A DNA stretch of 33,852 nt, taken from assembly GCA_044440125.1 (NCBI GenBank), contig JBITAJ010000020.1:1-33852 (forward strand). Reading direction: 5' to 3'. Positions 24,001 through 33,000 of the stretch are shown one piece after another. Position numbers: made by a program. This stretch comes from Sedimentisphaeraceae bacterium JB056. Lineage in GTDB: Bacteria; Planctomycetota; Phycisphaerae; Sedimentisphaerales; Sedimentisphaeraceae. Position 1 is the stretch's first letter. Every line of letters begins with the position of its first letter.

Positions 24001-27000
24001 TGACAAAAGCTAAAGATGTTCATGATGAGATATTTATGAATATTCTGGATTATGTCCGTTCAAATACTGATGAGGATTTTCTGGCTTTGAATGTTGGAAA
24101 CTGCAAGGTATGCAAAGAATGTGCATATTCTGAAGGTAAAGAATGCCGGCATCCTGACAGATCTTTTTCATCAGTCGAAGCCCATTGTATAGATGTTAAG
24201 GACTTGCTGACTACTTATGGCATCCCCTACATTAACGGCGTTAATACCGTTTCATATGTAGGTTTGTTTCTATTCAAAGATTAGTTAAATAGTTAGCTGT
24301 TCACAAAGGCTAATAATTCATGCCTCAAAGAGGCTGCAAATCATAGCCGGGGGGCATCGTCCTCGGGTGATTGGTGATTTACAAAGCTCCCTCCATCCCG
24401 ATTTCCAGCTGCAGGCTGGAAATCGGGGTGGAGGAGGGGTATTGCTATCTATTCCCACGGCGTTGCCGCGGGCTATTGTTTTAAGCCCTTCGGGCAATTA
24501 ATATATAAGAACGTAGATTTTGTAACACATTGTAAACGGTTAGTTAAATGGTTGTTTTATGGCAAAGAGTAGTTTTACCGTGGTAGTTATCGAAATTATC
24601 CGAGCTATCCCACAAGGAAAAGTATTCAGTTACGGCCGAGTTGCTAAGCTGGCAGGTAATTCACGAGGAGCCCGTCAAGTGGTACGTATTCTTCATACCT
24701 GCGGCGAAAAGGAGCAGTTACCGTGGCATAGGATTATCAGTAAGGATGGCAGTATTTCTCTGAAACCGCAGCATGGTTATGAAAAGCAACGGATGATGCT
24801 TGAGGAAGAAGGTATTGCTTTTGATACCGATGGCAGGGTTGACCTGACTCGCTTCTTGTGGCAACCGGAAGAAGAATGGTCTCCAGAACCGGAATTTGAT
24901 GAATTTGAAGAGTTTTGATTTTGATACCCCCAATTCAAATATCCATTAATTGTTCTTCTCATTTGACAAAAACAGTAATTGTGGTATTTTATGTTTATTA
25001 GCTGTCAGCGATAAGCGATTAGCAATCAGGCTATAAGTTAGCAGCGAGTAGCAAGTAGATATTAATTTTTGGATTTTAACTTGGAAAAAATATACGTAAC
25101 AGATCTTGATGGAACGCTTTTGAATAGTGAAGGGCGTTTGTCTGATAATTCCTGCAATGAGCTTAAGAGTCTTATTTCTGATGGAGCGAGGATAACCGTT
25201 GCCAGTGCGAGAAATTTGGCATCAATAAGGCGGCTGCTTCGGGATGTTTCTTTGTCTCTTCCTGTTATCGAGATAAACGGGGCGTTTGTCTCTGATTATG
25301 TTACGGGCAGGCATCTTTGTGTCAATGATATACCTCAATCAATATCGGCAGAGATATGCAGTTTATGTGAGGATAATGGTTGTGTGCCGTTTCTTGCCGC
25401 ATTTGACGGTAAGGAGGATCATCTTTTCTATGAGGCGGTAACCAATGAAGGTATGGAGTGGTTTATTGCTGATAAGACTGAAGATCATGCCGAAAGACTG
25501 AAAAAGCGTAAAATTACTCCTGAGATATTGGCGATGAATATTGTCTGCTTTGTCATTATAGGGGATGTTGAAGTTGTTGGGCGTATAAATGATAATATAG
25601 TGGAAAGATTCGGTGATGAACTTGACAGTTACTTTTTTCCCAATCCCTACAATCCCCAATGGCAATGGCTGACAATACACGATAAGAATGCACGTAAATC
25701 TAACGGGATTTATGAGCTTCTGAGGATTCAGGGGATGAGCTATGAGCAGCTTGTTGTGTTTGGCGATCAGGAAAACGATCTTGCTATGATGGAAGTCAAT
25801 AAGAGTGGAGCAGTGTCAGTGGCAGTTGGTAATGCAATAGATTCAGTAAAGACTGCTGCTACAAAGATATGCAGAAGCAATGATGAGGATGGTGTTGTAC
25901 AGTATATAGCGGAAGATTTTTATTCTTAATCTAACCATTTTTTCAATATTTCAGCCAGTGATTTAGGGGTTACCGGTTTGGAAATATAATCATTCATTCC
26001 GATGCTGAGGCATTCTTTCCTGTCACCATCCATTGCGTTTGCTGTCATTGCTATTATAGGTAAATTAGGATTTTTGATTTTGTCTTTAGATTTACGTATC
26101 TTCTCTGTTGCCTTAAGACCGTCAAGTACCGGCATCTGTACATCCATTAGTACCAGTTCGTAATCATTTTTTTCAAGAGCAGTTATCGCTTCCAGACCTG
26201 TCTGAGCAATGTCTGCATTAACACCCAGTTTTTCAAGAATACTGATTGCTACTTTCTGATTAATTATATTGTCTTCTGCAATTAATATTTTTCGCCCTCT
26301 CAGGGAGTTGGGATTGCTGTTTACGATTGCTGTATTTAATTGCGATGAAATTGTCGTTTTTTTCGAGGTTTGTTTGATAAATTTACCGGTGAACCAGAAA
26401 GAGGAACCTTCGTTTTCGATGCTTTGTACTCCTATTTCCCCTCCGGAAAGTTCGACCAATTTTTTGGATATTGCCAGCCCGAGTCCGGAGCCGCTGAAGT
26501 GCTTCATCTTGGAGTTGTCAAGTCTTTCAAAAGCGTTGAAAAGAAGTGGTAATTTTTCTTGTGCAATACCGATACCGGTATCTTTGACCTCAAACTTTAT
26601 TGTTACTATATCGTTTAATTCTCCTTCGCTGGTTATGTTGATCTCAACTTTACCTTTTTCGGTAAATTTGACAGCATTGCCAACAAGATTCAAAAGGATT
26701 TGCTTAAGTCTGCCAGGGTCTCCCTGAAGGTCAGTCAGCACATCAGAATCGATGTTTTTTGTGATTACGAGACCTTTTTCCTTAGCGTCAAATGATACTA
26801 TGTCAATTGTTTCATCGATTATAGTGTTCAGTTCAAAATCTGTTATGTCGAATTTAAGTTTGCCGGCTTCTATCCTTGAAAAATCAAGTATGTCATTAAT
26901 TAAGTTCAAGACTGAGCGGCTGCTTGAACTTAGTATTTTTGTGTAGCGGTATTGTTCTCTGGAAAGGCTTGTGTCCAAGAGAAGTTCGACCATCCCTATT

Positions 27001-30000: not shown

Positions 30001-33000
30001 TGAGGAATCTATTGTAACTTTGAAGTTCTTTTTCTATTGAATTCTGAAGCTGCTTATCGTCTTCGTTGAGCATCCACTCAATCAGTCCGGGGTCGTTGGC
30101 AAGTTTACGGCTGAGAGCAAGTTCACTTTGTACAAGTGAAAGTATGCGGTTTTTCTCGAGCATATTTTGTGATAAAGCAAAACGTTTGACGTATTGATCT
30201 CCTACTTTGCCAACGCTTATCTTAAAAACGAGTAAGGTAGCAATCGCTGTTATAAAATATATCAGGATTAAAACAGCCCCAAAGACCCTCTTGAGTGACC
30301 CTCGCTTTTTATGCAATGAGGGAGTGTTTGCTATATCTCTATTTATACTCATAAATTTGCTCTGCTAAATTGCTCATTTTAAGCAACCCATTAACATTTC
30401 TTAGTAAAAATACTGCAATATTTTAAACTACCGGGTTCTTTGTGGCAAGTTTAATTTTATTTTACATTTCACAGAGATATCTCTATATATGGATGCCTAA
30501 TTAATCCTTAAGCAGTATTAAGTTTGACAATGGGTTGACAACTCTTGGTTTTGGTAGTACAATCTTAGTTCATTTACATCCGAATGGGTGGCCGGACAGG
30601 GGTGTAAGGTCACTGGGATTAAACTGTTCGACAAGTTAGTGTAGGCTATATCTTGTTGAATTGTAATGATTTATGTTCATTTATGTTTAAGGGATAGTTC
30701 CGCAAACATAGTATTTAATACAGGAAAAGGGAAATCTTTGACAACAACGCATACGAAGACACTGATCAAAATCGGTGAGTCTTTGCATGCTTCAATTGCG
30801 CGCTGCGGTGAAGCTATGCAAAAAATTCATGACTCAAACGACCAGACATCTCTGGCCCTCATTCAGGAACTAATAACTACTCAAGCCGATTGCGGTGCTG
30901 ATTTTATCGAAGTTAATGTTGATAAGTTCGGTGAGCTTGGCTGGGATGTCGCTGCGGAGATGATGAAGAAATACGTAGCAATGGTAGCCGAGTTCGGCAA
31001 GGGGGTTCCTGCCTGCATTGACAGCAGTAATAATGAACTTCTTGAAGCCGGTCTTGAGAGCTGGTATGCTGCGGGCGCAGAGGCCAAGCCGCTTATTAAC
31101 TCGATTAAGCCAGATAATGCCGACAGACTTTTCTCATTGAAAGATAAATATCCGTTTGTTTTTATTGGGCTTCTAATGTCACATGCCAGCGAGAATCCGG
31201 TTCAGGATCTTGTTGATCAGGCGGAGCTTATTTTTGACAAAGCTGCTGCTGCCGGTTTTGCGGCAAATGATATATATTATGATACCGGAGCATTTCCACT
31301 CTCAATTGATATGCCGATGATGCCTGGAGAAAAAGGACGAACATTTACTGCTTTTGAGACAATAAAGGCGTTGAAAGATAATCCGAAATTTGCAGGTGTT
31401 CATTTTTCCCTTGGCATAAGCAATTGTGCGAAGGATTTGCCTGGACGCAGAATCGGTGTGATAAAAGCATATATCCAGAAGGCGATGGAATACGGCCTTG
31501 ATGCCGGCATCATTGACGTTCGCAGGGACTGGTTCCAGCCGGCTCCTGCTGAAGAGCTTGTCGAGCTTGTTACTGCATTTGCAGAGATAGACGGTTCTTC
31601 TGAGAAGCAGATGGATGCTATGAGCCGGATGTCGCAGTTTTGTCAGGACTGCAGAGATGCGAAGGGGGCGAAATGAGCAAACTTAAAAACTTATTAGCAA
31701 ACGGCGTTGTAATAGGCGATGGTGCCATTGGTACATTGCTTTACCAACGAGGTGTATTTGTCAATCGCTGCTTTGAGGAATTGAATATTACCGGCCGGCA
31801 GCAGATTAAAGATCTTCATTGTGATTACGTTAATGCCGGCAGTGATTTTATTGAGACCAATACTTATGGAGCCAACAAAATAAAACTTGCTGCCTTCGGT
31901 CTTTCTGACAAAGTAAGAGAGCTTAATATCGCTGGTGTTGATATTGCAAGAGAGGCAGCCGGTGAAGATGTTTTGGTCGCGGGTTCTGTAGGGCCTGTTG
32001 TCTCAGGATTCAGAACTATTGATGCACAGCAGGCGGAGGAACTTGAGGACGTTTATAAGGAGCAGGTCTCTGCACTTGTAGAGGGCGGTGTTGATTTTAT
32101 TATTCTCGAGACATTCAGTAATAGTGATGATCTTCTGATTGCTGTTGAGGCGGCCGCAGAAGTTTGTGAACTTGAGATAGTGGCTTCTTTACGCCCCGAG
32201 CCAGATCAGACAGAGGCTGATACTGATAAGCTTTGCAGGGATTTTGCCCGAATTGCGGCAAATGACAATGTTGCAGTTATGGGGCTTAACTGTGGAGCAG
32301 GTCCGGCTATTATGCTTCGTTATCTTGAAGCTGTAAGGAATATCAGCGAAAAACCGCTGTGTATTCAAGCTAACGTTGGTATGCCGCAAATGGTTGACGG
32401 GCGTATGATTTATATGGCGACTCCTGAGTATGTCGCCGAATATGCTAAGAGATTTTATGAAAAGGGAGCTGATATCATAGGCGGTTGCTGTGGTACAGGC
32501 CCAGAGCATATCAAAGAGATATGCAAGGCGGTTAAATCAGTCAGCCGTGCTGATAGAGAGGCAGGGAGAGTTGCCTCAGAGCTGACAGTGGTTGACGCAG
32601 AACTTCCAGAACCGGCGACTGCTTTTGCAAACAGGAGCCGTTTTGCAGAGAAAATTGCTTCTGGAAAGAAAGTACGTTTGATTGAAGTTACCCCTCCAAG
32701 ATCGATAAGCCTCGAGTCCATTATTGAGAAGGTGCAGCTTTGCAGTGAGAAAGGTATAGATGCAATCAACATACCTGATGGGCCAAGGGCTTCGTGCAGG
32801 CAGTCGGCACTTTCGGCGGCAATTAATATATCAAGACAGGTTGATACCGAGGTGATTCTGCATGTCTGCTCAAGAGACCGGAATATCATTGCTCTCCAGT
32901 CGGATATGCTTGGAGCTCAGTCGCTTGGTGTCAATAATATGCTCTTTATTACCGGCGATCCTCCAAAGCTTGGCGATTATCCTGACGCTACAGGTGTTTT

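What a model noticed while it worked through the whole genome (the two positions that open the first line are those of the whole stretch)
25926..30352. SiaABC partner-switch module wired to a hybrid histidine kinase instead of the diguanylate cyclase SiaD
Four genes on one strand with gaps of -1, 2 and 55 nt encode SiaA (HAMP + PP2C phosphatase, g01791), SiaB (kinase, g01790), SiaC (121-aa switch protein, g01789) and, where Pseudomonas aeruginosa has the GGDEF cyclase SiaD, a 475-aa hybrid histidine kinase (HisKA-HATPase-receiver, g01788). The phospho-switch SiaC is thus predicted to control a phosphorelay rather than c-di-GMP synthesis. The module is foreign to the lineage: SiaC is in 1 of 409 genomes of the order and 5 of 4992 of the phylum.
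Evidence so far: pfam.tsv and ncbifam.tsv: SpoIIE+HAMP, SiaB family protein kinase (DUF6272), SiaC, HisKA+HATPase_c+Response_reg; coordinates and gaps; relatives.tsv counts and neighbours.tsv: SiaC next to DUF6272 in 6438 of 6763 genomes, next to HisKA in 573 of 7184 and to HATPase_c in 928 of 7197 genomes that bear both. The P. aeruginosa paper read names SiaD as target and does not mention a kinase output (PMC7647112, passages found for four terms, call 143; listing of call 142).
(Added by a program. Inside this text positions count along the whole contig: contig position 1 is position 1 of the stretch shown here. "Call 12" and the like, gene names such as g00115 and contig names such as C1 are that model's own, and its searches are not shown. 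The text may have been shortened before it was handed on; [...] marks where a part breaks off. The agent that wrote the report below was given it as the finding of a first reader that could run no searches.)

Follow-up and report, generated by a model that had tools for sequence, protein, structure and literature searches.

The report
SiaABC phospho-switch docked on histidine kinase
A four-gene operon joins the SiaA/SiaB/SiaC serine-phosphorylation switch, known for turning on a c-di-GMP biofilm enzyme in Pseudomonas, to a sensor-less hybrid histidine kinase that begins with the same docking helix SiaC grips on its usual partner, so the switch here most likely drives a two-component phosphorelay instead.

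Summary
Four minus-strand genes with gaps of -1, 2 and 55 nt encode SiaA (dCache-HAMP-PP2C, 677 aa), SiaB (180 aa), SiaC (121 aa) and a 475-aa HisKA-HATPase-REC kinase.

The reading is supported by more than gene order:
- **Docking helix.** The kinase has no sensor domain. Residues 41-60 ([20 protein letters not shown]) match the stalk motif that SiaC binds on SiaD in 7E6G. Kinase-type versus SiaD-type N-termini gave hhalign 97.4%, E 1.3e-11.
- **Linkage.** In 12 of 12 scanned metagenome loci, the gene carrying this module directly follows SiaC, with HK, PAS-HK or GGDEF outputs. It is the only such gene in the genome.
- **Geometry.** The motif lies on one predicted helix (25-126) with His109. 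Motif-to-His spacing is 43, 50 or 57 residues, in steps of seven.
- **Complex model.** It passed at 0.86 against a best control of 0.63, but a like complex is solved, so this may be memory.

SiaC is rare in the lineage: 2 of 401 order genomes and 1 of 401 phylum genomes. Composition shows no sign of transfer.

I found no paper on a kinase output. The scan's own earlier notes describe the same wiring in other genomes. I class it as a new variant of a known kind.

The parts
28319..30352 (-). siaA-like gene: 677-aa membrane sensor phosphatase. Two hydrophobic segments (about residues 23-43 and 321-342) flank a dCache-like outer domain, followed by HAMP 341-391 and PP2C 471-670.
   Evidence: SpoIIE, HAMP, dCache_1; NF038263 548 bits, under its 700 cut-off. 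P. aeruginosa SiaA PP2C 6k4e at E 4.6e-58, with the metal-binding Asp motifs aligned; the outer domain resembles the McpH dCache (8bmv, E 6.3e-10). The transmembrane segments are read from the sequence.
27777..28319 (-). siaB-like gene: 180-aa SiaB-family protein kinase; its start overlaps the siaA stop by 1 nt.
   Evidence: DUF6272 135.9 bits. NF038262 190.6 bits (cut-off 85); equivalog NF038264 169.3 bits, under its 225 cut-off; 6kko_A at E 5.1e-34.
27409..27774 (-). siaC-like gene: 121-aa phospho-switch protein.
   Evidence: PF09345 127.3 bits. NF038265 133.7 bits, under its 150 cut-off; 6kko_C/7e6g at E 1.2e-28. It is the only SiaC and the only DUF6272 copy in the genome.
27580..27582 (-). 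Codon of SiaC Ser65, the residue aligned with the phospho-acceptor Thr68 of P. aeruginosa SiaC (N-S-S here, N-T-S there).
   Evidence: Alignment; codon checked. Ser at this column is common among both HK-linked and GGDEF-linked SiaC proteins.
25926..27353 (-). 475-aa sensor-less hybrid histidine kinase: docking module, coiled coil, HisKA, HATPase_c and REC; no HPt.
   Evidence: H109, the N/G1/G2 boxes, D361, D404, T437 and K459 are invariant in the 12-sequence alignment. Fold (mean pLDDT 81.2).
27174..27353 (-). N-terminal SiaC-docking module of the kinase (residues 1-60); core motif at residues 41-60 (27174-27233), [20 protein letters not shown].
   Evidence: homology to SiaD-type N-termini; predicted interface at residues 43 and 46-59; coordinates checked. 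No Pfam family at E <= 0.01 covers residues 1-98, and the NCBIfam SiaD model does not hit it at E <= 1.
27060..27173 (-). Coiled-coil linker (residues 61-98) between the docking motif and the DHp helix; it carries a 14-residue (two-heptad) insertion relative to most relatives.
   Evidence: Asp-to-His spacing is 57 here, 43 in 14 of 16 distinct relatives and 50 in one; a single helix spans residues 25-126.
27027..27029 (-). Codon of His109, the phospho-accepting histidine (H-box SHEIRTP).
26142..26144 (-). Codon of Asp404, the receiver-domain phospho-acceptor (LVLMDVQMP).
30420..30448 (-). Promoter-like site (TTGCCA-17-TAAAAT) 68 nt upstream of siaA. This is weak evidence: the region has no more such sites than shuffled sequence does.
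   Evidence: 18 sites found against 14.7 +/- 3.7 in shuffles. No terminator-like site lies between 25500 and 30800.

Best explanation
The four genes form one signalling cassette.

SiaA is a membrane protein with an extracytoplasmic dCache-like domain, a HAMP domain and a PP2C phosphatase. It removes the phosphate that the kinase SiaB puts on SiaC at Ser65. Unphosphorylated SiaC then binds the docking motif (residues 41-60) at the start of the kinase, two SiaC per kinase dimer.

The motif lies on a long helix that continues without a break into the DHp helix carrying His109. Binding therefore sets the conformation of the coiled coil and so the kinase's autophosphorylation. The phosphate passes to the kinase's own receiver (Asp404). 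From there it would go through a separate HPt protein to an unidentified response regulator; a stand-alone 138-aa HPt is encoded elsewhere in the genome.

What is shown: gene content and order, homology of every part, the docking motif, its strict linkage to SiaC, the heptad-preserving spacing, and intact catalytic residues.

What is inferred: binding, direction of signal flow, the sign of the effect, co-transcription and the downstream regulator. On the sign I lean to activation by stabilising the parallel dimer, as in SiaD, at about 60:40.
For: 1. Motif identity. The eLife 2021 passages (PMC8457831) list the SiaD stalk contacts as R74, K77, V78, R80, I81, S82, D83, R84, Y85, Q86, M88, R90 and D91. 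The SiaD chain reads ...LRRLEKVARISDRYQQMMRD. The kinase reads [20 protein letters not shown], with 6 of the 13 contact positions identical (K46, V47, I50, D52, Y54, Q55) and 3 conservative (T51, K53, E60).

2. Homology.
- phmmer of kinase residues 1-103 against 1.84 billion representatives gave 23 other proteins at E <= 0.001.
- By Pfam these are 9 HisKA-HATPase-REC proteins (5 with Hpt), 1 HisKA fragment, 1 HATPase protein with a weak HisKA match, 2 PAS-HATPase, 8 GGDEF (one with PAS) and 2 short fragments.
- hhalign of 10 kinase-type against 7 SiaD-type N-termini gave 97.4%, E 1.3e-11, over 54 columns.
- The kinase-type profile hits the stalk of a SiaD equivalog (NF038266 318.6 bits, over its 290 cut-off) as the only match in that genome (E 1e-3).

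3. Linkage.
- A metagenome scan with the kinase-type profile returned 14 loci. In all 12 that I scanned, the ORF directly upstream is SiaC; the outputs are 8 HisKA kinases, 1 PAS-HATPase and 3 GGDEF.
- DUF6272 lies upstream in 6 of 6 loci tested, and a dCache-HAMP-SpoIIE protein in 2 of 2.
- In 5 other genomes, all 7 profile matches at E <= 0.01 lie in the gene next to SiaC.
- In this genome the kinase scores E 2e-31. The next match scores 0.011 and covers only the coiled-coil part.

4. SiaC surface. Of the 14 SiaD-contact residues of SiaC named in the paper, 10 are identical here and 2 are conservative.

5. Geometry. AlphaFold2 gives one helix over residues 25-126 that holds both the motif and His109. 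The spacing from the motif Asp to the His is 43 in 14 of 16 distinct kinase-type sequences, 50 in one and 57 here.

6. Complex model. Two copies of kinase residues 1-96 with two copies of SiaC scored 0.86, against a best control of 0.63. That mark was reached by 116 of 157 solved complexes and 2 of 215 mismatched pairs. The runs share at least 83% of their contacts, and the partner's pLDDT is at least 90. The interface is kinase 43 and 46-59 with SiaC 9, 29, 31, 33, 62-66, 68-69, 72, 98, 100, 103-104, 107-108 and 110. This covers 10 of the 14 positions homologous to the 7E6G contacts.

7. No other input. The kinase has no other sensor domain. The genome's single GGDEF protein lacks the module.
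Against: - Nothing here measures binding, phosphorylation or expression.
- The complex pass may reflect the model's memory of 7E6G, and its margin over the best control (+0.23) only just clears the 0.20 mark.
- The kinase-type profile hits P. aeruginosa SiaD itself only at E 0.49, though at the right place. The NCBIfam SiaD model does not hit the kinase N-terminus at E <= 1.
- The kinase has one motif where SiaD has two.
- 4 of the 13 SiaD contact positions differ: Q43, S49, E57 and I59 stand for R74, R80, M88 and R90.
- The 55-nt gap before the kinase is longer than the 18-39 nt seen in related loci, so a separate promoter is possible.
- No HPt or response regulator lies nearby, so the output is unknown.
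- The loci were retrieved with the module itself, and several are near-copies of one another, so 12 of 12 overstates the number of independent cases.
Confidence: 0.75

Rival explanations
1. The signal runs the other way, or the kinase acts as a sink. The kinase N-terminus binds SiaC in order to sequester it or shield it from SiaB and SiaA, or the kinase or its receiver feeds into the switch. The true output of SiaC would then lie elsewhere.
For: In other partner-switch clusters a neighbouring hybrid kinase is proposed as an input, for example hcyA-D of Nostoc punctiforme (PMC9127174, passages). No response regulator or HPt gene lies beside this kinase.
Against: The kinase has no sensor domain of its own, so it has nothing to report to the switch. 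SiaA already supplies a membrane sensor. The same module sits on GGDEF cyclases, where the direction SiaC to enzyme has been demonstrated. No other protein in the genome carries the module.
Confidence: 0.1
2. The kinase is an ordinary neighbour. The motif likeness is coiled-coil noise, and SiaC acts on an unlinked target or has none in this genome.
For: The direct match to P. aeruginosa SiaD is not significant (E 0.49). Coiled coils give spurious similarity, and other hits in that same search are unrelated coiled coils. A 55-nt gap separates siaC from the kinase gene.
Against: hhalign gave 97.4%, E 1.3e-11, and phmmer E-values against GGDEF proteins go down to 6e-8 over 1.84 billion sequences. 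SiaC lies directly upstream in 12 of 12 loci. The profile matches genome-wide only beside SiaC in 6 of 6 genomes, counting this one. Spacing to the His is conserved in steps of seven.
Confidence: 0.07
3. The cassette is a horizontally acquired remnant that is silent or decaying in this host.
For: SiaC was found in 2 of 401 order genomes and 1 of 401 phylum genomes, counting this one. No partner HPt or response regulator is linked to the cassette.
Against: All four reading frames are intact, and the catalytic and phospho-acceptor residues are conserved. The same arrangement persists in a roughly 2% diverged contig from another sample. GC3 matches the neighbouring genes, which argues against a recent arrival.
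Confidence: 0.08

Closest known systems
SiaABCD of Pseudomonas aeruginosa (PA0172-PA0169; PDB 6K4E, 6K4F, 6KKO, 6KKP, 7E6G)
   Same: The order is the same: membrane HAMP-PP2C SiaA, kinase SiaB, phosphoprotein SiaC, then the target enzyme. PDB matches are E 4.6e-58 for SiaA, 5.1e-34 for SiaB and 1.2e-28 for SiaC. The target begins with the SiaD-type N-terminal module and the K-V-x-x-I-S/T-D-K/R-Y-Q docking motif.
   Different: The target's catalytic part is HisKA-HATPase-REC, not GGDEF. It has one docking motif, not two. The phospho-acceptor of SiaC is Ser, not Thr. All three Sia proteins score under the NCBIfam equivalog cut-offs. The output would be a His-Asp phosphorelay, not c-di-GMP.
Kinase-type SiaC-linked proteins in metagenomes
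   Same: They share the same module followed by HisKA-HATPase-REC, lie directly after SiaC, and have 36-47% identity to the window kinase over the N-terminus.
   Different: Most have 43 residues between the motif Asp and the His; the window kinase has 57. Several add a second receiver and/or an HPt domain, which the window kinase lacks. The window SiaC joins their SiaC clade only weakly (support 76/70).
STAS-type partner switches with non-sigma targets (HptB-HsbR-HsbA-HsbD of P. aeruginosa and BgrSTUWV-BgrR of Sinorhizobium, as cited in PMC8457831; hcyA-D of Nostoc, PMC9127174)
   Same: A PP2C phosphatase and a small kinase set the phosphorylation state of a small protein, which then binds a signalling enzyme. 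hcyA-D also has a hybrid histidine kinase in its cluster.
   Different: Those systems use STAS and RsbW-type proteins, not the SiaC (DUF1987) and SiaB (DUF6272) families. In hcyA-D the kinase is a multi-sensor protein proposed as an input, and no docking helix on it is reported.

Membership tests
SiaABCD partner-switch system | SiaA: membrane-anchored HAMP + PP2C phosphatase | tested here: met
   HAMP 37.8 bits and SpoIIE 70.2 bits. 6k4e at E 4.6e-58 with the Asp motifs aligned. NF038263 matched over its full length at 548 bits, under the 700-bit equivalog cut-off.
SiaABCD partner-switch system | SiaB-family kinase (DUF6272) | tested here: met
   NF038262 190.6 bits (cut-off 85) and PF19788 135.9 bits. 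The equivalog NF038264 scored 169.3 bits, under its 225 cut-off. 6kko_A at E 5.1e-34.
SiaABCD partner-switch system | SiaC (DUF1987) with a phosphorylatable residue at the Thr68 position | tested here: met
   PF09345 127.3 bits. Ser65 aligns with Thr68. The equivalog NF038265 scored 133.7 bits, under its 150 cut-off. Phosphorylation itself is not testable here.
SiaABCD partner-switch system | Output is the GGDEF diguanylate cyclase SiaD | tested here: not met
   The fourth gene has HisKA, HATPase_c and Response_reg but no GGDEF. NF038266 does not hit its N-terminus at E <= 1.
SiaABCD partner-switch system | The target carries the SiaC-binding stalk motif | tested here: met
   [10 protein letters not shown] aligns with KVARISDRYQ of 7e6g. 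hhalign 97.4%, E 1.3e-11 against SiaD-type N-termini.
SiaABCD partner-switch system | SiaC physically binds and regulates the target | not testable with these tools
   Only a model is available: score 0.86 against a best control of 0.63, a mark reached by 116 of 157 solved complexes and 2 of 215 mismatched pairs. A like complex (7E6G) is solved, so the pass may be from memory.
Hybrid histidine kinase (HisKA type) | H-box His, the N/G1/G2 ATP-binding boxes, and a receiver with the acidic pocket, phospho-Asp, Thr and Lys | tested here: met
   HisKA 80.6, HATPase_c 95.0 and Response_reg 92.1 bits. H109, N222, N226, D258, G260, G262, G288, G290, G292, D361, D404, T437 and K459 are invariant in 12 sequences.
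Hybrid histidine kinase (HisKA type) | An HPt domain to complete the relay | tested here: not met
   The protein has no Hpt match. Five of nine full-length kinase-type relatives have one. The genome has 3 Hpt matches, one of them a stand-alone 138-aa protein on another contig.

The most novel reading that the evidence does not exclude
The roughly 60-residue SiaC-docking helix is a portable, still unnamed input module. It lets a Ser/Thr partner switch gate any dimeric enzyme that is controlled through a coiled coil: HisKA kinases, PAS kinases and GGDEF cyclases. The heptad-exact spacing to the phospho-histidine (43, 50, 57) marks a rigid mechanical link. In a phylum where SiaC was otherwise not found in the sample, and in a genome with a single GGDEF gene, the cassette plugs an extracytoplasmic dCache sensor into a His-Asp phosphorelay through a phosphoserine switch.
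Probability: 0.6. Interest if true: 0.7.

Novelty: new variant of a known kind. Interest (0 to 1): 0.62.

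Why it matters
SiaABCD has been studied only as a c-di-GMP and biofilm switch of one pathogen. If SiaC also gates histidine kinases through the same docking helix, several things follow:
- The switch becomes a general adaptor between Ser/Thr phosphorylation and two-component signalling.
- It explains how sensor-less kinases receive their input.
- It gives a short sequence signature that predicts SiaC targets in genomes.
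- It offers a simple system of one helix and one small protein for studying how coiled-coil stabilisation sets kinase activity.

The heptad rule is directly testable by inserting or deleting residues in the linker.

Tried and rejected
- **Word-index search.** A search with kinase residues 1-100 found only 1 other protein. The exhaustive search was needed.
- **Archaeal host.** I tested this because a Methanospirillum MAG holds a close SiaC. The 16S is bacterial (RF00177, 1488 bits).
- **Synteny.** I looked for a clean insertion site. Three family genomes keep the pterin-binding and HcyMT/MTHFR pair (2 of 3 with both), but nothing on the sia side, so no conclusion is possible.
- **Composition.** GC is 0.387 against 0.431 for the rest of the window, and GC3 (0.37-0.40) falls inside the neighbours' range of 0.25-0.52. 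This gives no signal of transfer.
- **Promoter and terminator scan.** Promoter-like sites are no more frequent than in shuffles, and no terminator-like site was found. This is uninformative on operon structure.
- **Expression.** No RNA holder was listed among the public runs, so co-transcription could not be examined.
- **The other SiaC in the order.** G348 has a different cassette: GAF-PAS-SpoIIE, a tandem-DUF6272 protein, SiaC, then an ABC transporter. It therefore says nothing about the origin of this one.
- **SiaC tree.** The 8 metagenomic kinase-linked SiaCs form a clade (support 95/90). The window SiaC joins them only at 76/70, so single versus repeated origin of the kinase wiring stays open.
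- **Rough frequency check.** In a sample of 301 genomes from the phylum of G401, there were 11 strong SiaC matches. One is followed by a hybrid kinase with a divergent motif, 4 by GGDEF, 2 by a GAF protein, 1 by a PP2C, 1 by a porin, and 2 have a short ORF or reach the locus end.
- **Earlier scan notes.** A look-up by genome returned nothing. A look-up by kinase sequence returned 2 unrelated notes.

Full report
**1. What is in the sequence**

The window is a whole 33,852-base contig (C20) of a 4.54-Mb bacterial genome: 33 contigs, 99.77% complete, with a bacterial 16S. Between a convergent HAD-family hydrolase gene (25069-25929, +) and a divergent pterin-binding methyltransferase gene (30666-31676, +) lie four minus-strand genes:

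| Coordinates | Length | Product |
|---|---|---|
| 28319-30352 | 677 aa | SiaA-like phosphatase |
| 27777-28319 | 180 aa | SiaB-like kinase |
| 27409-27774 | 121 aa | SiaC-like phosphoprotein |
| 25926-27353 | 475 aa | hybrid histidine kinase |

- The kinase starts at the ATG preceded by AGGAG. Homologues align from that Met, so the longer TTG frame of 488 aa is not the gene.
- The rest of the contig is ordinary chromosome: carAB, argJ, mfd, an FtsX-type permease, sugar kinase, acyl-CoA ligase, oxidoreductases, tag and ogt. No integrase or transposase family was matched.
- A contig from a different sample and study carries the same stretch, 25256-31500, contiguously with 116 differing letters and 2 gaps. 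The adjacency is therefore not an artefact of one assembly.

**2. Identity of the parts**

- **SiaA.** It matches SpoIIE/PP2C, HAMP and, just under the cut-off, dCache_1. It covers the NCBIfam SiaA model end to end at 548 bits, under the equivalog cut-off of 700. Its PP2C domain matches the P. aeruginosa SiaA structure 6K4E at E 4.6e-58, with the metal-binding Asp motifs aligned. The outer domain resembles the dCache of chemoreceptor McpH at E 6.3e-10.
- **SiaB.** It passes the SiaB-family model (190.6 bits, cut-off 85) and matches 6KKO chain A at E 5.1e-34.
- **SiaC.** It passes PF09345 (127.3 bits) and matches the P. aeruginosa SiaC chains at E 1.2e-28. The phospho-acceptor Thr68 aligns with Ser65 (N-S-S for N-T-S). 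Ser at this column is common in SiaC proteins linked to either output.
- **Kinase.** It has HisKA, HATPase_c and a receiver, and no HPt. His109, the ATP-binding boxes and the receiver's D361, D404, T437 and K459 are invariant among 12 aligned relatives.
- **Copy number.** The genome has one SiaC and one DUF6272 gene.

**3. The kinase carries the SiaC docking site**

The first 98 residues of the kinase match no Pfam family at E <= 0.01.

- An exhaustive phmmer search with residues 1-103 against 1.84 billion representatives found 23 other proteins at E <= 0.001.
- By Pfam they are 9 HisKA-HATPase-REC proteins (5 with HPt), 1 HisKA fragment, 1 HATPase protein with a weak HisKA match, 2 PAS-HATPase proteins, 8 GGDEF proteins (one with PAS) and 2 short fragments.
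- All share A-Y-h-K-L-S-x-x-F-x-K-V-h-x-I-S/T-D-K-Y-Q near the N-terminus. Most GGDEF members carry it twice.

This is the site SiaC binds on SiaD.

- The eLife 2021 paper (PMC8457831; passages read) reports two SiaC-binding motifs on the SiaD stalk. It lists the contacts R74, K77, V78, R80, I81, S82, D83, R84, Y85, Q86, M88, R90 and D91.
- The 7E6G chain reads LRRLEKVARISDRYQQMMRD at that place and RLERIARISDGFQ one motif earlier.
- The window kinase reads [20 protein letters not shown] (residues 41-60). Six of the 13 contact positions are identical and three are conservative.

The direct and indirect statistics differ and both should be stated.

- The direct profile match to P. aeruginosa SiaD is weak: E 0.49, at the right position.
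- The NCBIfam SiaD model does not reach the kinase N-terminus at E <= 1.
- The profile-profile comparison of 10 kinase-type with 7 SiaD-type N-termini is clear: 97.4%, E 1.3e-11, over 54 columns. It covers the N-terminal helix and the first motif.
- The kinase-type profile finds the stalk of a SiaD that passes the equivalog cut-off (318.6 bits, cut-off 290) as the only hit in its 3.8-Mb genome.

On the SiaC side, 10 of the 14 residues named as SiaD contacts are identical here: D27, Y29, Y62, N64, S66, D76, R100, L104, E107 and D111. Two are conservative: S65 for T68 and L72 for M75.

**4. The module is always next to SiaC**

- A metagenome scan with the kinase-type profile gave 14 loci.
- In all 12 that I scanned, the ORF immediately upstream is SiaC, at 123-138 bits. 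L020 and L023 have the same ORF layout as L019 and L022 and were not scanned.
- The module-bearing gene is a HisKA kinase in 8 loci, a PAS-HATPase in 1 and a GGDEF cyclase in 3.
- DUF6272 precedes SiaC in 6 of 6 loci tested. A dCache-HAMP-PP2C protein precedes that in 2 of 2.
- Among the 8 genome loci found with the window's SiaC, a motif pattern searched in six frames over up to 12 kb hit only the gene after SiaC, in 7 of 8 loci. That gene is GGDEF in 6 and PAS-HATPase in 1, the latter a Methanospirillum MAG. The eighth locus has a 600-aa protein with no Pfam match.
- Genome-wide, the profile matches only the SiaC neighbour in five other genomes (7 of 7 matches at E <= 0.01).
- In this genome the kinase scores E 2e-31. 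The next match scores E 0.011 and covers only the coiled-coil part.

Caveat: the loci were fetched with the module itself, and six of the kinase-linked ones are close relatives. The count of independent cases is therefore smaller than 12.

**5. Geometry**

- AlphaFold2 on a 12-sequence alignment (mean pLDDT 81.2) gives a short helix at 7-21. A single helix at 25-126 then holds the docking motif, a coiled-coil linker and DHp helix 1 with His109. DHp helix 2, the ATP-binding domain and the receiver follow.
- The distance from the motif's Asp to the phospho-His is 43 residues in 14 of 16 distinct kinase-type sequences, 50 in one and 57 in the window kinase.
- The insertions are exactly one and two heptads. 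That is what a register-sensitive coiled-coil link between the SiaC site and the catalytic His would require.

**6. Complex model**

- I folded two copies of kinase residues 1-96 with two copies of SiaC, each with its own alignment. The score was 0.86 against a best control of 0.63.
- That mark was reached by 116 of 157 solved complexes and 2 of 215 mismatched pairs.
- The runs agree in at least 83% of contacts, and the partner's pLDDT is at least 90.
- The interface is kinase 43 and 46-59 with SiaC 9, 29, 31, 33, 62-66, 68-69, 72, 98, 100, 103-104, 107-108 and 110. These are the positions homologous to the 7E6G interface.
- Because 7E6G is a solved like complex, the pass may come from memory. 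It shows likeness, not that this pair binds. The margin (+0.23) only just exceeds the required 0.20.

**7. Most likely mechanism**

- SiaA senses an extracytoplasmic or membrane cue and dephosphorylates SiaC-P. SiaB re-phosphorylates it.
- Free SiaC clamps the parallel N-terminal helices of the kinase dimer at residues 41-60 and thereby shifts the DHp and the catalytic cycle.
- The phosphate goes from His109 to Asp404, and then needs an HPt protein.
- The genome has three Hpt matches. One is a stand-alone 138-aa protein on contig C19 beside a Bax-inhibitor-like gene. The final regulator is unknown.
- The sign of the effect is not known. By analogy with SiaD, where SiaC stabilises the active dimer, I lean to activation at about 60:40.
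- The genome has a single GGDEF gene (306 aa, contig C11). The profile search did not match it at E <= 1, and no docking motif is visible in its N-terminus. A c-di-GMP output through the module is therefore not available in this genome.

**8. Distribution and origin**

- SiaC was found in 2 of 401 sampled genomes of the order and in 1 of 401 of the phylum. Both counts include this genome.
- The other order member (G348) has a different cassette: a GAF-PAS-PP2C protein, a tandem-DUF6272 protein, SiaC, then an ABC transporter.
- The nearest SiaC proteins are about 50% identical and come from Spirochaetota, a Methanospirillum MAG, Thermodesulfobacteriota and metagenomes.
- Acquisition by transfer is likely but not shown. 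GC3 of the four genes (0.37-0.40) is like that of their neighbours. Synteny with the nearest genomes, about 50% identical at the protein level, is lost on that side.

**9. Comparison with what is known, and novelty**

The three upstream proteins are members of the SiaA, SiaB and SiaC families. The system fails one defining feature of SiaABCD, the GGDEF output, while keeping the docking motif. It works like SiaABCD with a swapped effector.

- The eLife authors suggest in general terms that DUF1987 proteins modulate adjacent proteins. Their text does not contain 'histidine kinase'.
- The PLoS One 2020 paper (PMC7647112) and the JBC 2025 paper (PMC12834913) mention histidine kinases only as background (passages).
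- A 2022 mBio survey (PMC9239204) cites SiaABCD as a PP2C/STAS-to-c-di-GMP example (one passage).
- Full-text searches found no paper on a kinase output. The searches were SiaC+SiaB+histidine kinase; DUF1987; SiaC/SiaD/phylogenetic/output; DUF6272/PF09345/PF19788/SiaC family/SiaC-like/SiaC homolog; and partner-switching/histidine kinase/SiaABC.
- Subscription-only papers, including the EMBO J 2020 paper on SiaABCD, were not readable.

This scan's own earlier notes describe the same reading in other genomes: a SiaB/SiaC switch with a docking helix on a sensor-less kinase, and the helix as a portable plug. There are 14 such notes in at least 12 genomes, of which 8 were shown. They are unchecked AI notes, not independent evidence, but they agree with what I derived here before seeing them.

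What this locus adds:
- a complete SiaA-B-C-kinase cassette;
- the two-heptad linker variant;
- a host lineage in which SiaC is otherwise almost unseen;
- a genome with a single GGDEF gene.

**Verdict.** It is a new variant of a known kind, of moderate to high interest. Binding and effect remain untested.

Noticed in passing
window 6330-8060 (+): A 576-aa AAA_21/AAA_15 ATPase gene sits alone between argJ and mfd. Its GC is 0.33 and GC3 0.25, far below its neighbours (0.45-0.48). It looks like a small acquired islet of the defence-ATPase kind.
   Followed up: no
L032 (G348:C116) 2546-9791, minus strand: The only other SiaC in the sampled order sits in a different cassette: GAF-PAS-PAS-PP2C (867 aa), a 385-aa protein with two DUF6272 domains, SiaC, then a 1024-aa ABC_tran + ABC2_membrane protein with a roughly 270-residue N-terminal extension and no evident docking motif. 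The transporter may be yet another kind of SiaC target.
   Followed up: partly
L005 1091-3262 (+), Methanospirillum MAG contig: A contig assigned to an archaeon carries SiaB, SiaC and a docking-motif-PAS-HATPase kinase. I did not check whether the contig truly belongs to the archaeal bin.
   Followed up: no
kinase-type relatives (P0002-P0018, L012-L019) and window 27027-27233: The spacing from the docking-motif Asp to the phospho-His takes only the values 43, 50 and 57 residues, in steps of one heptad.
   Followed up: yes
L061 1-1368 (-), L056 2-1489 (-), L059 1881-2600 (+): A more divergent form of the helix (RLIRLGDIMQ, RLVKLSDRNEE, RLVKMSDRMQ) follows SiaC on a hybrid kinase, a GAF protein and a GGDEF cyclase in Thermodesulfobacteriota-type genomes. 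The motif family is therefore broader than my profile.
   Followed up: partly
L016 993-1346 and 1365-1784 (+): One SiaC-linked kinase is split into two ORFs, with HisKA cut at position 29 of 66 and HATPase in the next frame. It is either a broken gene or an assembly error.
   Followed up: no
L010 2196-3998 (+), Bacteroidetes MAG: A SiaC 32% identical to the window's is followed by a 600-aa protein and a 232-aa protein with no Pfam match at E <= 0.001 and no docking motif by my pattern.
   Followed up: no
G000 contig C19 12483-12899 (L072 1375-1791, +) and contig C11 21459-22379 (L074 660-1580, +): The genome holds a stand-alone 138-aa HPt protein, a candidate relay partner for the HPt-less kinase. 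It holds only one GGDEF gene, of 306 aa.
   Followed up: partly
window 26840-27073: In the laid metagenome contigs this bin reaches depths of 676-1192 from many short pieces of other organisms. It is the conserved H-box region of HisKA kinases, not a copy-number signal.
   Followed up: no
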